This document shows positions 1-4,858 of a DNA stretch of 36,871 nucleotides, piece by piece. Made by a program: the position numbers and the translations under genes. The notes beneath the pieces are model-generated. The model was not told the origin of the DNA and ran no database searches. It worked only from the letters and a program-made list of their open reading frames with translations. The first letter of the stretch is position 1. Each line of letters begins with the position of its first letter. This stretch comes from a virus (taxonomy: Duplodnaviria; Caudoviricetes). The DNA lies in the IMG/VR virus record IMGVR_UViG_3300037692_000098, positions 1-36,871 of that record; one strand, given 5' to 3'.

Positions 1-69
1 AGGCGTGGGGGCCGGTATCGTGTCGACGGGGGGCCGTTGAACGCGTTCCGGGAACGGTTCGGACTATAG
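1..69 (+). CDS. 3' end of a truncated upstream gene (...RRGGRYRVDGGPLNAFRERFGL*)
   Basis: Frame 1 is open from the window edge to TAG 67-69; same stop-codon/ribozyme junction as at 963-965. Confidence 0.6.
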   Translation, partial: RRGGRYRVDGGPLNAFRERFGL

Positions 70-125
70 GACGAAACGGCCGCCCCCGGCGGCCGTCTAG
101 GGGTTGTGCCCCTACTGACGAGTCC
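69..125 (+). ncRNA. Hammerhead ribozyme, type II (HHR1)
   Basis: Stem II GGAC(69-72)/GTCC(122-125); GAAA 73-76; stem III ACGGCCGCC/GGCGGCCGT; GUC cleavage triplet 95-97; stem I TAGGGG/CCCCTA; core CTGACGA 115-121. Confidence 0.95.
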
Positions 126-143
126 AGAATTGAGGAGTCACCT

Positions 144-965
144 ATGGACACGAAAACTGCTTACCGTTGCTGGCGCTTGCGCGGGTATCCCGCGCAAGAG
201 TCACTTGCGTTCGCCCGTCGCGACATAACCGATAAGGTCCGCCGGTACGTTCCCGAACGCCCTAGCCTGACTTGGCAACCGAACGACCCGAAAACCGCCT
301 ATGTGTACACGCCAGAGGCGTTCGGGTTGCGCCTTGTTGGTCGCGTCGCGGCGGATACGCCGCGCGGCAATATCTGGGATACGTCCGAGTCTTGCGGTTG
401 GTACACGGACCCGGACGAAATGTCCGCGCGCGATGGAACGGGCCTTTGTTGGGGCGTGGTCTACCAGTTGCCGGGCCGCCATGGTCGCGCCCGGTTTGTC
501 GCCGGCTATCAGTTCGGCGGGACGGACGGGGGGCCGCTTGTCGACTTCGGCAAGATATTCGAGTCCGCGTCCGATTGGAACGCGGCGCGCGCGGCCTCCT
601 ATGCGGCCGACTCCATGGCGCGGACGGCCGCCGAAAAGGAAAAGGACTATCAGACCGCGTGGTTGTGCGGGCAAGCCTACGCGGACGCGGGGGAAGAGAT
701 CGAGCGACTCCGCACGGAGATCAAAGAGGCAATCCGGCAATGGCGTGACGCCAAGGCCGCCTTGCCGAACGCGGAAACCCGTTTCGGCCGGCTTTGCGCC
801 TTGATCCGGGACGACGTGGCGGACGCCTTGGCGGATATCCGCGCGGCACGGGAAACTCGCCGCAAGGCTATCGAAGGGGAAGCCTATGGGCATTCGGTCT
901 ACATGGGGGAAATCGAGCAAGGGGCCTTTTGTGAGGCGACCGGACTCGAGACAATGCCGGCTTAG
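144..965 (+). CDS. Hypothetical early protein (273 aa) flanked by two hammerheads
   Basis: GAGGAG RBS then ATG; helical coiled-coil-like C-terminal half; no family recognised. Confidence 0.85.
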   Translation: MDTKTAYRCWRLRGYPAQESLAFARRDITDKVRRYVPERPSLTWQPNDPKTAYVYTPEAFGLRLVGRVAADTPRGNIWDTSESCGWYTDPDEMSARDGTGLCWGVVYQLPGRHGRARFVAGYQFGGTDGGPLVDFGKIFESASDWNAARAASYAADSMARTAAEKEKDYQTAWLCGQAYADAGEEIERLRTEIKEAIRQWRDAKAALPNAETRFGRLCALIRDDVADALADIRAARETRRKAIEGEAYGHSVYMGEIEQGAFCEATGLETMPA

Positions 966-1019
966 GACGAAACGGCCGCCGCGCGGCCGTCTAGGGGTTG
1001 TGCCCCTACTGACGAGTCC
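965..1019 (+). ncRNA. Hammerhead ribozyme, type II (HHR2)
   Basis: GGAC(965-968)-GAAA-stem III ACGGCCGC/GCGGCCGT-C991-stem I TAGGGG/CCCCTA-CTGACGA(1009-1015)-GTCC; differs from HHR1 only at the tip of stem III. Confidence 0.95.
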
Positions 1020-1035
1020 AACAAGAGGAGTCCTC

Positions 1036-1485
1036 ATGACCAAACCCAAGGAAAACCCGCGCGCCTTCATAGTCGCGTATCGGGACAAATTCGGGTTTCC
1101 CAAGTTCGCTATGCCGGGCTTTTTCGATGCGTCCGAAGCGGCGGCCCTAGCCGATATTGATCCGGCCTATGAAGCCTTGCGGTATTCCGACTATATCCAG
1201 CAAGCGGACATTGACGATTTGTCCGAACGTAAAGGCCGCGCGCGGGAACATCTCGCCCCGGCAAAGCCGGCCCGCGTTGCGGTTGTTACGGGAACGTTTC
1301 CCGAACCGCGCGCGGCCGTCACGGCTAAACTGTTGTCCGCCGGCTATGCGGTTCGGGCGGCCGTGACGGGGGCAACGACTCACGTTGTCGCGGGGGACCA
1401 TCCCGGCGGGAAGGTAAAGGCCGCCCGGTATTACGGGATACCGGTCCTAAGCTTGCCGGACGCCTTGGCGGCCGCGCATGAATAG
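1036..1485 (+). CDS. Small protein with C-terminal BRCT domain (LigA-type)
   Basis: GAGGAG RBS, ATG 1036; VVTGTF...R...G..V..AVT..TTHVVAG..PGGKVKAA...GIPVL matches the BRCT pattern. Confidence 0.85.
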   Translation: MTKPKENPRAFIVAYRDKFGFPKFAMPGFFDASEAAALADIDPAYEALRYSDYIQQADIDDLSERKGRAREHLAPAKPARVAVVTGTFPEPRAAVTAKLLSAGYAVRAAVTGATTHVVAGDHPGGKVKAARYYGIPVLSLPDALAAAHE

Positions 1486-1687
1486 GCGTGATCAAGACCG
1501 CTTGCGCGGCATACTGGCGGCCGATAGGGCGGCCCGCGTGCTCCAATGGGCAAGCCTAGCCGGGGGCGTTCTGGCGGCCTTCAAATACGGGCTGGCGGCC
1601 CTAATCCTAGCCGGGGCCTTGTCCGCCATGTTCCGGCTGGCACGTCCGACCCTGCCCCCCGATCTAGAGCGGCAGATTTATCGCTAA
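1478..1687 (+). CDS. Small membrane protein (69 aa)
   Basis: Overlaps upstream stop; hydrophobic segments; followed by a terminator. Confidence 0.7.
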   Translation: MNRRDQDRLRGILAADRAARVLQWASLAGGVLAAFKYGLAALILAGALSAMFRLARPTLPPDLERQIYR

Positions 1688-1695
1688 GCGAGCGT

Positions 1696-1729
1696 AAGGC
1701 CCCCGGCGGTAACCGGGGGCCTTTTCCTT
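1696..1729 (+). terminator. Intrinsic terminator
   Basis: AAGGCCCCCGG-CGGTAA-CCGGGGGCCTT then TTCCTT. Confidence 0.8.
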
Positions 1730-1868
1730 GCCCCCACACGGCCGAAACGACGGCCGGCGGACAACCCCCCACAAATCACAGTCAGGCCCCTACACGGCCC
1801 GCTCTAGGACCGTCCGTGTACACGTCCGCGCCCGATCCGGGGGCCGCCGGGGGTGACGGGCGACGGTA

Positions 1869-1899
1869 GAACAAAGCATGAACAGAACAAACCATGAAC
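1869..1899. promoter_or_regulatory. Two tandem alphaproteobacterial LexA (SOS) boxes
   Basis: GAAC-AAAGCAT-GAAC (1869-1883) and GAAC-AAACCAT-GAAC (1885-1899) fit GAAC-N7-GAAC; intergenic. Confidence 0.7.
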
Positions 1900-2160
1900 A
1901 GAATTATTCGAGCGCGGCCGCCGGTACGCGCGCGGCGATCCGGAAGCGAGCGACCACGGCCGTACTTCGGAGGCGCTGCCGGTACGCGCCCACTACTTCG
2001 GGGACCTAACGCAACACCATACTTTGGTGGCCCAACGCGATATCGGGCTGCGAAACTTTGGCCGGCTAGCCCGTTCTCGATTTTTTCGCCAGTCAGCTAC
2101 CGGATCGGCCTCGGCCGTGCGATTATTCAAGCGTAGGCCATCAAATCGAAGGGAACGACC

Positions 2161-2448
2161 ATGACTGCCCCAACCATGCGCGCCAAGATGCGCGTCGCCG
2201 ACATCAACTCGTATCCGAGGACCGGCGAGGTCTCTCAGGAAACGCTCACCATGTACGCCGTTGGCCGCTCCGAAGGCTATCCCGAGGACGGCAGCGACGA
2301 GAACAACACCTACGCCCGTTTCACGCCATCTGGCCGGCTCGAACTGTCCATCGCCAACCCGACGCTCTTCGGCAAGTTCAAGGTTGATGACGAGTATTAC
2401 GTGGACTTCACGCTGGCCAAAGCCGTCGAACCGAAAGCCGGATCGTAA
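2161..2448 (+). CDS. Hypothetical phage protein (95 aa)
   Basis: GAAGGGA RBS, typical high-GC codon usage, beta-rich sequence ending EYYVDFT. Confidence 0.8.
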   Translation: MTAPTMRAKMRVADINSYPRTGEVSQETLTMYAVGRSEGYPEDGSDENNTYARFTPSGRLELSIANPTLFGKFKVDDEYYVDFTLAKAVEPKAGS

Positions 2449-2457
2449 AGGCCCGAC

Positions 2458-2505
2458 AAAAAAGATCGCCGGGACGATGGGGGCCAGCCCACGTCCCGGC
2501 GATCT
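2458..2505 (-). terminator. Intrinsic terminator facing the - strand
   Basis: 14-bp stem AGATCGCCGGGACG/CGTCCCGGCGATCT with an A6 run on its left (U-tract on - strand). Confidence 0.6.
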
Positions 2506-2571
2506 CACTCTGGAGTCCTCTGCCGTCCATCCGGGGGGATGAACGCGAGGAATTTAGAGGAAACCTGACCC

Positions 2572-2715
2572 ATGAGCAAGATCGAAAAACGACCCGACCG
2601 ACAACCCGTCCGGCAAATCGAGGCCGAGGCTGTTTCCCGGATCAACCGATTGCCGCCGGGCACTTTGGCGACCCCGCCAGTACCCGTGTTGACGCGCCCG
2701 CCCAAATCACCGTAA
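2572..2715 (+). CDS. Small ORF (47 aa, MSKIEKRPDRQ...PPKSP), below ORF-track cutoff
   Basis: GAGGA RBS upstream of ATG 2572; terminator downstream. Confidence 0.45.
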   Translation: MSKIEKRPDRQPVRQIEAEAVSRINRLPPGTLATPPVPVLTRPPKSP

Positions 2716-2750
2716 ATGGGCCGTCAGGAAAGCGTAGTCCCAAACGCGGG

Positions 2751-2798
2751 GGCCGAGATCGCATACGCTCTAGGGTGGACCGCGATCTCGGCCTTTTT
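2751..2798 (+). terminator. Intrinsic terminator
   Basis: GGCCGAGATCGC/GCGATCTCGGCC 12-bp stem followed by TTTTT. Confidence 0.7.
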
Positions 2799-2973
2799 CC
2801 AAAACGGATTCGTCCAAACGGATTCGACTTTTTGAAAATCGAGAGGGGGGTTGAGCGAACCCCGAGCGAAAAAGACCCGGCGGGTTAGGCCGGGCCAAGT
2901 GCTTCGGGAAGCCGACCATGCCGACCGGCGACTTCGGTACTCTAGCCCGGCGTCGAAAAAATTGGAAGGGCGA

Positions 2974-3002
2974 CTTGACTGGCAACTTTCGGTAGCCTAT
3001 GT
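2974..3002 (+). promoter_or_regulatory. Sigma70-type promoter
   Basis: CTTGAC-N17-CTATGT, near the rhizobial RpoD consensus CTTGAC-N17-CTATAT, about 40 nt before ATG 3042. Confidence 0.8.
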
Positions 3003-3041
3003 AGGGCGGGTACGGCTAACCCCAACCGAAGGAACTAAGCC

Positions 3042-4184
3042 ATGAACACCCTGATGCAAGTCTCCAACCAGTGGGCCACTCGTCCGGCTGACGAACGCTT
3101 CACGTCCCTCCCCGAATTGCTGAACAAGGTCGATGGCCAGCGTCAGCGCTCACTCTCGACCGTCGTCTCGTCGCGCCAGATCAAGGTGCAGCCGGCCGCC
3201 GCCGATGAGCGCAAGGGCATTGAGATCATCGGACCGAACGGTAAGCCTGCCATCCCGACCCATTGGTCGTTCGGCCAGCTTGCTTCGCTCTCCGGCGCTC
3301 CTGCGTCCTACCTGCGCAAGCTCCCGGCACCGCTCGTCGCAGACTGCATGAACTATGGCCTGCGCTTCAACCGCGATGCCGAGGACGTTGGCGTGTTGCT
3401 GACCAAGGAAGACGCCGAAGGTCCGGCCATCGGCTCCGTCGGCACTGGTCAGGTCTCCCGCTTCGAGCTTCGTGCCGCCACTGGTCCCGGCTACGGCCGC
3501 GTCTGGAACTCCGAGATCGTTGAAGCCTTGATGCACAAGTTCGGCGACGGCCGCACGGGCGACTTCCGCGTGCCGGGCGAGTTCGGCAAAGAGGTCGACA
3601 TCACCAAGGCCAACACGACGATCTACGGCAGCGACCGCGACATCTTCGTCTTCCTCGCGGACGAGAAGCACCGCATCGACATGCCGAACCGTCGCAATGG
3701 CGAAACCGGCTCGCTCGCACGCGGCTTCTTCGTCTGGAACTCCGAGGTCGGTTCGCAGTCCATCGGCGCAGCGTTCTTCCTGTTTGACTACGTGTGCCAG
3801 AACCGCATCGTCTGGGGCGTGCAGGACTTCAAGGAAATGCGCCTGCGTCATACCAAGTCGGCCCCGGATCGGTGGCTGGAAGAGATCAGCCCGGTCTTGG
3901 TCGAGTATTCGAACGCCTCGTCCGCCCCGGTCATGGAGACCATCAAGGCGGCTCAGGATAAGAAGTTCGCCGACGATCTCGACGACTTCCTCGCCAAGCG
4001 TTTCACCAAGTCCGAGGCGACCGCCGTCAAGGCCGCCCACGAACGGGAAGAGGGTCGGCCTATCGAGACCCTGTGGGACGTGGTGACAGGCGTCACGGCG
4101 CATGCCAAGACGCTCCCGCATCAGGATAGCCGCGTCGCCATGGAACGGGTCGGCGGCAAAATCCTCGATCTCGTCGCAGCCTAA
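3042..4184 (+). CDS. DUF932/DUF945-family protein
   Basis: W..RPADERF.SL, PTHWSFGQL, LRAATGP.YGR, RGFFVWNSEVG, VC.NR..WG motifs; AAGGA RBS. Confidence 0.85.
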   Translation: MNTLMQVSNQWATRPADERFTSLPELLNKVDGQRQRSLSTVVSSRQIKVQPAAADERKGIEIIGPNGKPAIPTHWSFGQLASLSGAPASYLRKLPAPLVADCMNYGLRFNRDAEDVGVLLTKEDAEGPAIGSVGTGQVSRFELRAATGPGYGRVWNSEIVEALMHKFGDGRTGDFRVPGEFGKEVDITKANTTIYGSDRDIFVFLADEKHRIDMPNRRNGETGSLARGFFVWNSEVGSQSIGAAFFLFDYVCQNRIVWGVQDFKEMRLRHTKSAPDRWLEEISPVLVEYSNASSAPVMETIKAAQDKKFADDLDDFLAKRFTKSEATAVKAAHEREEGRPIETLWDVVTGVTAHAKTLPHQDSRVAMERVGGKILDLVAA

Positions 4185-4249
4185 ACAGGGACGACGAGTG
4201 TTCCCCGGCGCGGAGACGACTCCTCCCCCGCACCGGGGGGCTATAAGAG

Positions 4250-4360
4250 GACAGGTTTCGAGGGTCGGGCTTACTTCAAGTGTGGCATGGGGCGCGTTCC
4301 CACCGCAGACTGAAGAACAAGGCTCGGCGCGCAAGGGTCGCCCGCCCCTCGTGACCTGTC
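4250..4360 (+). ncRNA. Putative structured RNA (long stem with three-way junction)
   Basis: GACAGGTT.CGAGGG.CGGGC pairs with GCCCG.CCCTCG.GACCTGTC and encloses two inner helices; G-U wobbles favour the + strand. Confidence 0.55.
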
Positions 4361-4387
4361 ACAACGAATTTCACCGGACGGGATTGC

Positions 4388-4858
4388 ATGGACATCCAGA
4401 CCTTCCTTCGCCAGCGGATTGAGGCGTGGGGCCAGATCGGCCACCCGGCCTTGATGGAGCGCTTCATCGACCGCAACGGCACCGTCTTCCAGCCACGTCC
4501 CTTCGCGGGCCTGCGCATGATGCCGACGCTATGCTTCCAGAACTGCATGGACCTGCTGTTCATGCAGGCAGGGCGCGGACTGCTCTACGCTGAAGGCTAC
4601 GGTTGGCGGCAGGACTTCCCGTTGCTGATACACCACGCGTGGCTGGTGACGCCCGACGGCAAGGTAGTCGATCCAACGTGGGTGCACCCCGAGACCTACC
4701 AGTACATCGGGATCAGTCTGCCGCGCGACGAGGCGTGGGCGGTGGTCGAAGAGGCCGATCACTACAGCGTGCTCGACCCCGGCATGATCAATCTCGACTG
4801 GATGTTCGGCCGCGACCCCGGCCTACGTGACTTTCTACCCGAACCGAGAAGCGCATGA
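4388..4858 (+). CDS. Putative transglutaminase/papain-like (Cys-His-Asp) protein
   Basis: CFQNC...YAEGY...IHHAWLV...VVDPTW motif spacing. Confidence 0.6.
   Translation: MDIQTFLRQRIEAWGQIGHPALMERFIDRNGTVFQPRPFAGLRMMPTLCFQNCMDLLFMQAGRGLLYAEGYGWRQDFPLLIHHAWLVTPDGKVVDPTWVHPETYQYIGISLPRDEAWAVVEEADHYSVLDPGMINLDWMFGRDPGLRDFLPEPRSA

What the first reader, a model, noticed from the sequence alone, without database searches (positions are those of the whole stretch)
69..1019. Tandem hammerhead ribozymes punctuating a phage early operon and bracketing a single gene
Seen: two complete type II hammerheads (69-125, 965-1019), identical except at the tip of stem III. Each has the layout stop codon TAG (its G is the first base of stem II) - ribozyme - 6-7 nt - GAGGAG RBS - ATG. 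Known: hammerheads cleave after NUH, leaving a 2',3'-cyclic phosphate and a 5'-OH, and occur in some phage-related loci with unclear function. Inference: cleavage after C97 and C991 releases an 894-nt monocistronic RNA (98-991). It would have a 5'-OH plus stem I hairpin ahead of the RBS, and the stem III hairpin at its 3' end. This looks like a protein-free mRNA processing and stabilisation cassette for early genes. More copies may lie upstream of the window.
Basis: partly seen in the sequence, partly recalled or inferred. Interest (0 to 1): 0.92.

Follow-up and report, generated by a model that had tools for sequence, protein, structure and literature searches.

The report
Two hammerhead ribozymes bracketing phage gene
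Two complete self-cutting hammerhead RNA motifs sit on either side of one gene in this uncultured phage and likely chop a long message into single-gene pieces, an arrangement already described in phages in 2011 whose purpose is still unproven.

Summary
Two canonical type II hammerheads lie at 69-125 and 965-1019, with predicted cuts after 97 and 991. They are the only ones in the window, and 0 of 40 random controls gave one as strong. The stop codon-ribozyme-RBS-ATG layout is real but common: 28 of 57 viral loci found with the motif carry 2-11 copies. Perreault et al. 2011 described hammerheads flanking single prophage genes, showed cleavage, and proposed the same processing idea. This scan has noted such arrays on other DNA. 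The ribozymes are not tied to this gene: 1 of 31 homolog loci has one. Contigs from the source sample and a related strain show further copies next to other genes. In one pair of related arrays, two whole cassettes differ with breakpoints in the ribozymes. Cleavage, stabilisation and 'early' timing are untested. The cultured Streptomyces phage Wentworth carries six such elements, a ready test system. Verdict: new member of a known kind; interest modest.

The parts
69..125 (+). Type II hammerhead ribozyme motif, copy 1; predicted cut after C97
965..1019 (+). Type II hammerhead ribozyme motif, copy 2; predicted cut after C991; loop I (998-1001) can pair 4 bp with the 3' tail (1021-1024)
67..69 (+). 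TAG closing a 22-codon frame open to the contig edge; its A is the conserved A 5' of stem II and its G the first base of stem II
132..146 (+). GAGGAG ribosome-binding site (132-137) and ATG (144) of the bracketed gene
   Evidence: start agrees with homolog N-termini
144..965 (+). Bracketed gene, 273 aa, phrog_8188 (unknown function); predicted beta-sheet domain plus long helical hairpin; no solved-structure match
98..991 (+). Predicted 894-nt single-gene RNA between the two cut sites (inferred product)
   Evidence: arithmetic from motif positions, not observed
1025..1038 (+). GAGGAG ribosome-binding site (1025-1030) and ATG (1036) of the next gene
1036..1485 (+). 149-aa gene with a C-terminal BRCT-like domain; with copy 2 it forms the unit missing from relative L087
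1478..1687 (+). 69-aa hydrophobic ORF overlapping the previous stop by 8 nt, with no ribozyme ahead of it
1698..1725 (+). G+C-rich hairpin followed by T residues, likely terminator closing the block
   Evidence: seen in sequence; not called by the strict scan

Best explanation
Two canonical type II hammerhead motifs bracket one gene and likely cut the phage's long message after positions 97 and 991, which would release a single-gene RNA and give each downstream gene the same short leader. Shown: the motifs, their place between a stop codon and a ribosome-binding site, further copies in related contigs, and cassette-sized differences between related arrays that break in the ribozymes. Inferred: each motif folds and cuts soon after it is transcribed (cyclic phosphate upstream, 5'-OH downstream, by established hammerhead chemistry). 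The downstream RNA would then start with the stem I hairpin, the core and the RBS, 46 nt (copy 1) or 44 nt (copy 2) ahead of the ATG, whatever gene lay upstream. Translation and decay of each gene would be uncoupled from its neighbours, so accessory genes can be gained and lost as ribozyme-RBS-gene units, probably by recombination between the near-identical copies. The pair here is most likely the distal end of a longer array cut off by the contig edge.
For: Perfect core and three stems in both copies; 0 of 40 controls as strong. Covariation: 0 of 500 shuffles reach the observed pairing, and slid controls pair 28-46%. Conserved A 5' of stem II (77 of 85 copies with a 4-bp stem) and U at position 7 after the cut (104 of 127), both present here. 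SD plus start within 70 nt in 113 of 127 copies, upstream stop ending within -10..+1 of stem II in 91 of 127, and a single ORF covering >=75% of 61 of 84 inter-ribozyme segments; these three counts have no chance control. Published triple arrays cleaved at all sites in vitro and one also in E. coli; a halovirus transcript 5' end maps within 3 nt of its hammerhead site (PMC3088659). L020 vs L056 differ by two cassettes with alignment breaks in the ribozymes. L087 keeps copy 1 with compensatory stems but lacks copy 2 and the BRCT gene. Predicted SD accessibility rises from 0.32-0.34 to 0.68 after cutting for copy 1, little for copy 2 (0.36-0.44 to 0.50).
Against: No cleavage or transcript end was observed. 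In 2D folding with flanks the hammerhead fold lies 2.6-7.6 (copy 1) and 1.1-4.4 kcal/mol (copy 2) above the ensemble, against medians of 2.5 and 3.1 in 125 other copies; copy 1 with both flanks is worse than the upper quartile. Copy 1 has no loop I pseudoknot (2 bp), which matters for speed in tested type II ribozymes. 30 of 31 homolog loci carry the gene with no hammerhead, so processing is dispensable for it. Adjacent copies usually share only 11 exact bases (median; 4 of 81 share >=30), short for homologous recombination. The cassette evidence rests on one pair of arrays plus L087; three other pairs of near-identical arrays showed no difference.
Confidence: 0.6

Rival explanations
1. Cutting is a regulated switch: competing pairings hide the RBS and start codon in the uncut RNA, and ribosomes ending on the overlapping stop codon set the timing, so cleavage turns the next gene on.
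For: Copy 1: the upstream strand is predicted to pair over the AUG and the stem II strand with the SD; SD accessibility doubles after cutting. Copy 2: a 7-bp coding-region strand competes with stem II and the core. The stop codon overlaps stem II.
Against: The two copies have different competitors and copy 2 shows little change. The SD context GGAGTC occurs ahead of the homolog gene in 8 of 24 loci with no ribozyme, so the pairing need not be selected. The competitor of copy 2 is coding sequence in a conserved motif. The exact stop overlap occurs in only 24 of 127 copies and follows easily from the conserved A-G at that place.
Confidence: 0.13
2. Cutting speeds decay: the ribozymes make early messages short-lived, as glmS cleavage does, and so limit expression of host-takeover genes.
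For: glmS self-cleavage is followed by degradation (PMC6765202 passage). RNase E often cuts by direct entry whatever the 5' end. That a 5'-to-3' exonuclease (RNase J) attacks 5'-OH ends is recalled, not checked.
Against: Each product would carry a strong hairpin at both ends, and one ribozyme per gene is more than a shut-off timer needs. The host and its RNases are unknown.
Confidence: 0.1
3. The elements matter mainly as DNA repeats (hinges for gene-cassette shuffling, or selfish spread), and RNA cleavage is tolerated rather than useful.
For: 38-nt identity between the two copies; indels breaking at the elements; patchy presence among relatives; precedent of PeSL cassettes in T4-type phages (PMC2839356 abstract).
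Against: Across arrays the catalytic core and pairing are kept while exact identity between neighbours is lost, the signature of selection on the RNA fold. All copies in a locus lie on one strand, in 28 of 28 multi-copy loci.
Confidence: 0.09
4. The two ends of the released RNA re-form one hammerhead (or are joined by a host RtcB-type ligase), giving a circular single-gene mRNA.
For: In the type II layout the released RNA carries both halves of a ribozyme, and here both copies have the same stem II; 58 of 81 adjacent pairs elsewhere are cross-compatible (biased upward by the search pattern). Tandem hammerheads make circles in retrozymes (PMC6155905 passage).
Against: 23 of 81 adjacent pairs cannot cross-pair. 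Predicted probability of the closing helix is 0.02. Perreault et al. looked for circular or spliced products and found none (data not shown).
Confidence: 0.06
5. The two-copy arrangement is an assembly artefact of a collapsed repeat.
For: Public contigs break at the 38-nt repeat, and none spans the whole stretch, so the exact gene order through the repeat is not proven.
Against: One contig of the likely source run covers 97-992, and one from another study has the gene with a ribozyme at both ends. The copies differ at the stem III tip.
Confidence: 0.02

Closest known systems
Clustered hammerhead ribozymes flanking single genes or short gene blocks in prophages (Perreault et al. 2011, PMC3088659; passages plus sections 7 and 11 part 1 read, supplements not read)
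   Same: Type II architecture, intergenic position, several copies bracketing single genes of varying identity, and the same proposed role (processing long phage transcripts into gene-length mRNAs).
   Different: Their tested arrays were prophage loci of C. scindens, A. caulinodans and A. tumefaciens. The copies here have a 4-bp stem II, mostly no pseudoknot (>=4 bp possible in 19 of 127, vs 10.8 +/- 3.0 with shuffled partners), and score below the Rfam cut-off.
Rfam RF02276 Hammerhead_II
   Same: Full-length match to the model with all core bases.
   Different: 28.0 and 29.7 bits, under the gathering score of 37; the model has a 2-bp stem II.
PeSL promoter/stem-loop cassettes of T4-type phages (Arbiol et al. 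2010, PMC2839356; abstract read)
   Same: Short repeated regulatory units between non-essential genes at which genes are gained and lost.
   Different: PeSLs are promoter plus terminator and were shown to recombine and form DNA mini-circles; the units here are ribozyme plus RBS, and recombination is inferred.
Retrozymes (tandem hammerheads giving circular RNAs; PMC6155905 passage)
   Same: Tandem near-identical hammerheads 0.6-1 kb apart.
   Different: Retrozymes are eukaryotic, non-coding, and use type I or III; here a protein gene with RBS lies between type II copies, and circles are not shown.
RiboJ-type synthetic ribozyme insulators (recalled, not checked in a paper)
   Same: A self-cleaving ribozyme just ahead of an RBS that removes upstream sequence and leaves a standard leader.
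   Different: Engineered, placed after a promoter; a functional analogy only.

Membership tests
Type II hammerhead ribozyme | Core CUGANGA, GAAA and UH around a three-way junction | tested here: met
   no core deviation in either copy
Type II hammerhead ribozyme | Stems I and III closed by loops, stem II open | tested here: met
   stems of 7/4/8 and 7/4/7 pairs, covarying across 33 copies
Type II hammerhead ribozyme | Loop I / 3' tail pseudoknot (common, not universal: about 40% of all hammerheads) | tested here: inconclusive
   4 bp possible in copy 2, 2 bp in copy 1; an A-U contact between the A 5' of stem II and the U at position 7 is suggested by conservation, its geometry recalled
Type II hammerhead ribozyme | Score at or above the Rfam RF02276 gathering threshold (37 bits; a curation cut-off) | tested here: not met
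   28.0 and 29.7 bits, full-length, E 0.0075 and 0.0026; bears on automatic Rfam annotation, not on the ribozyme class
Type II hammerhead ribozyme | Site-specific self-cleavage | not testable with these tools
   needs in vitro transcription or raw RNA reads
Clustered phage hammerheads (Perreault 2011) | Two or more hammerheads close together, intergenic, flanking single genes | tested here: met
Clustered phage hammerheads (Perreault 2011) | Phage or prophage context | tested here: met
   tail, tape measure, neck and endolysin families in the window; the record is a virus record
Clustered phage hammerheads (Perreault 2011) | Flanked genes are not constant | tested here: met
   no window gene in the 57 motif loci; 1 of 31 homolog loci has a ribozyme
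Retrozyme / circular RNA element | Non-coding interior between type I or III hammerheads | tested here: not met
   interior is a conserved 273-aa gene; type II
Retrozyme / circular RNA element | Circular RNA product | not testable with these tools
   no RNA reads available
PeSL cassette | Strong sigma-70 promoter plus terminator in each unit | tested here: not met
   no + strand promoter-like site in 1-4500 and no terminator call at either element

The most novel reading that the evidence does not exclude
The ribozyme-RBS unit is a natural insulator and recombination hinge whose type II layout lets the two ends of the released RNA rebuild one hammerhead and ligate, so the phage makes nuclease-resistant circular mRNAs, one per accessory gene, without any protein.
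Probability: 0.06. Interest if true: 0.85.

Novelty: new member of a known kind. Interest (0 to 1): 0.27.

Why it matters
The role of self-cleaving ribozymes between phage genes is a stated open question (PMC6765202, PMC6155905 passages). This locus adds one tidy example but, from an uncultured phage with an unknown host, cannot settle it. Two by-products are more useful. These elements fall below the Rfam cut-off and so are missed by routine annotation although they are common in viral contigs. And a cultured phage with a laboratory host (Streptomyces phage Wentworth, MH019216) carries six of them, which makes the question testable in infection.

Tried and rejected
Rfam gathering scan of the window: nothing; e-value scan of 3000-36871: 3 weak unrelated hits. 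Single-protein locus search in viral contigs: no match; the alignment search worked. Idea that the ribozyme truncated the gene and supplied a new stop: rejected, homologs end at the same column. Idea that the gene needs flanking ribozymes: rejected (1 of 31 loci; none near the S-ESS1 or phiCbK homologs; no other ribozyme family at gathering score in 19 of the 31 loci scanned). Idea that the SD context co-evolved to pair with stem II: not supported. The constrained energies forbade the A15.1-U16.1 pair and overstated the penalty; one search replaces them. Function of the bracketed protein: no Pfam family over cut-off, no PADLOC hit, no usable Atlas hit, no PDB match at E<=0.001; viral matches are uncharacterised. 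Rfam-model search of 4 related genomes missed even the known L087 copy (150 of 3539 candidates scored); the pattern search found it as the only intergenic-type copy on that contig. No RNA holder listed. Contig depths (6.7 for the bracketed gene, 8.0 for an alternative upstream piece, 12.2 downstream, 30.4 for the repeat) hint at coexisting variants but are not copy numbers and were not used as evidence. Paper searches (listings only, except papers cited as read) showed no in vivo study of the purpose of phage arrays and no mention of the Wentworth array; most subscription papers are outside the library.

Full report
Observation. Both motifs are present as described. A descriptor search for all three hammerhead topologies over both strands of the window returned exactly two hits, type II, cutting after 97 and 991, with stems I/II/III of 7/4/8 and 7/4/7 pairs. 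40 Markov controls gave 3 hits in all and none of comparable strength. Rfam RF02276 matches both over its full length at 28.0 and 29.7 bits, under its cut-off of 37. A model built from 33 copies, these two included, finds no third copy. The copies differ only at the tip of stem III and share 38 identical bases. The gaps to GAGGAG are 6 and 5 nt. The TAG at 963-965 is the natural end of the 273-aa gene; the TAG at 67-69 closes a 22-codon frame running off the contig.

Context. The window is a partial tailed-phage genome: small and replication-type genes on the + strand, tail and lysis genes on the - strand (46 ORFs chosen by hand from 269 listed). A tail assembly protein is closest, at about 30% identity, to Rhodobacter phages; the host is not determined. 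The block reads ribozyme, gene 144-965 (phrog_8188), ribozyme, BRCT-like gene 1036-1485, small hydrophobic gene 1478-1687, then a terminator-like hairpin at 1698-1725 that the strict scan did not call. No + strand promoter-like site was found in 1-4500. Homologs of the bracketed gene lie in the terminal repeat of phiCbK and near the genome end of S-ESS1, which fits early expression but does not show it. The protein folds with confidence (pLDDT 94.8) but matches only uncharacterised phage proteins.

How common is the layout? A pattern built on the motif found 57 viral loci. 56 of 57 hold at least one full hammerhead by my descriptor and 28 of 57 hold 2-11, always on one strand; several loci overlap or come from near-identical genomes, so these are not independent. 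Among distinct copies, 113 of 127 have an SD-like motif and start within 70 nt, 91 of 127 have the upstream stop within -10..+1 of stem II and 24 of 127 have the exact overlap seen here (4 of 131 copies with no long upstream frame left out). 61 of 84 segments between ribozymes are essentially one ORF. These counts lack chance controls. An A precedes the 4-bp stem II in 77 of 85 copies and U follows six stem I pairs in 104 of 127. The A and G of the TAG are thus ribozyme consensus, and the stop overlap needs only one added base. On 33 hand-picked copies 98.3% of cells pair and 12 of 14 pairs change on both sides.

Relatives. Only 1 of 31 loci with a homolog of the bracketed gene has a hammerhead; the model search of 54 loci agrees and adds one element, identical in three loci, just after DUF932. 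That locus, L087, has the same TAG-ribozyme-RBS-gene layout with compensatory stems, but no second ribozyme and no BRCT gene in that slot. Public DNA contigs laid on 1-3200 show, in the likely source run, a different sequence leading into a copy-2-type ribozyme. In a second study they show a different gene start behind a copy, 503 further bases upstream of position 1, and the bracketed gene followed by 174 extra bases before its downstream ribozyme. So more copies exist, and the bracket is not always one gene long. Contigs break at the repeat, so the order through it is not proven. Arrays L020 and L056 differ by two cassettes (493 and 273 nt between ribozymes), and the alignment breaks within the ribozyme-RBS repeats; three other near-identical pairs showed no difference.

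Mechanism. Most likely each motif cuts soon after synthesis, leaving the downstream gene with a 5'-OH, a hairpin and a fixed 44-46-nt leader, and the upstream gene with a 3' hairpin and cyclic phosphate (chemistry as in PMC6765202). This would uncouple each gene from its neighbours and let genes come and go as units. Folding is not unopposed: with flanks, the hammerhead fold lies 1-8 kcal/mol above the 2D ensemble, against a median of about 3 elsewhere, and the model ignores tertiary contacts. Copy 2 can form a 4-bp loop I/tail pseudoknot, copy 1 cannot. Predicted SD accessibility rises on cutting for copy 1 but barely for copy 2. Stabilisation is plausible but open: RNase E cuts a 5'-hydroxyl oligonucleotide poorly, yet direct entry is pervasive (PMC4191395 passages). 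Circles are possible in principle, but 23 of 81 adjacent pairs cannot cross-pair, the closing helix has predicted probability 0.02, and the 2011 study found none.

Comparison with what is known. Perreault et al. 2011 (passages, sections 7 and 11 part 1) reported multiple hammerheads flanking single genes in prophages, proposed processing into gene-length mRNAs, and showed cleavage of three arrays in vitro and one in E. coli. Its supplements, not read, may hold close relatives of these copies. Reviews from 2017 and 2019 (passages) call the biological role open. PeSL cassettes (abstract) are the precedent for shuffling at repeated regulatory units. Earlier notes of this scan report the same kind of array in other genomes and none for this genome; they were treated as leads. 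A 2026 preprint on ribozyme discovery had no phage passage.

A test system. A DNA search of cultured phages gave 9 weak records, of which I followed one. Streptomyces phage Wentworth has six model hits in a 12-kb stretch, each just ahead of an annotated gene; five have an intact core and one a U4C change, and four pass the strict descriptor.

Verdict. A real and well-formed feature, a new member of a kind known since 2011. Cleavage is very likely, its purpose unproven. Interest 0.27.

Noticed in passing
L126:4943-11178 (Streptomyces phage Wentworth, MH019216, about 52.8-59.1 kb): Six type II hammerhead elements, each just ahead of an annotated gene and its RBS, unannotated in the record; one has a U4C core change. 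Cultured model for testing array function.
   Followed up: partly
L020 vs L054/L056: Related seven- and eight-copy arrays differ by two whole gene cassettes with breakpoints in the ribozyme-RBS repeats.
   Followed up: yes
L022 / L051:1035-5992: Eleven hammerheads in 5 kb with varied stem II sequences, many incompatible between neighbours.
   Followed up: partly
L012:1650-3057: Alternating type I and type II hammerheads (two each) in one array.
   Followed up: no
window:2804-2833 and L087:2909-2938: A 30-nt hairpin-containing stretch is 93% identical between the two phages inside an otherwise divergent, largely non-coding region upstream of DUF932; possibly a terminator or a protein-binding site.
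   Followed up: no
window:1730-3040: About 1.3 kb, mostly non-coding and G+C-rich apart from a 95-aa gene at 2161-2448; a related strain has many small indels here. Candidate origin or packaging region.
   Followed up: no
L061:2797-2900, L062, L063, L073 (just after the homolog's stop): A shared hairpin-like intergenic motif precedes the next RBS in these ribozyme-less relatives; a different punctuation element.
   Followed up: no
L080:572-680 and L082:707-817: A shared promoter-like intergenic repeat lies downstream of the homolog in one locus and upstream in the other, suggesting promoter cassettes in place of ribozymes.
   Followed up: no
L114:10008-10066 (same in L115, L120): A type II hammerhead directly after the DUF932 gene; a weak second model hit lies just upstream of that gene.
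   Followed up: no
window:1036-1485: Small stand-alone BRCT-like protein; its BRCT part also matches PADLOC model PDC-S48 (E 3e-12).
   Followed up: no
L088:7058-7144: C4 antisense RNA (RF01695) above the gathering score in a related prophage-like contig.
   Followed up: no
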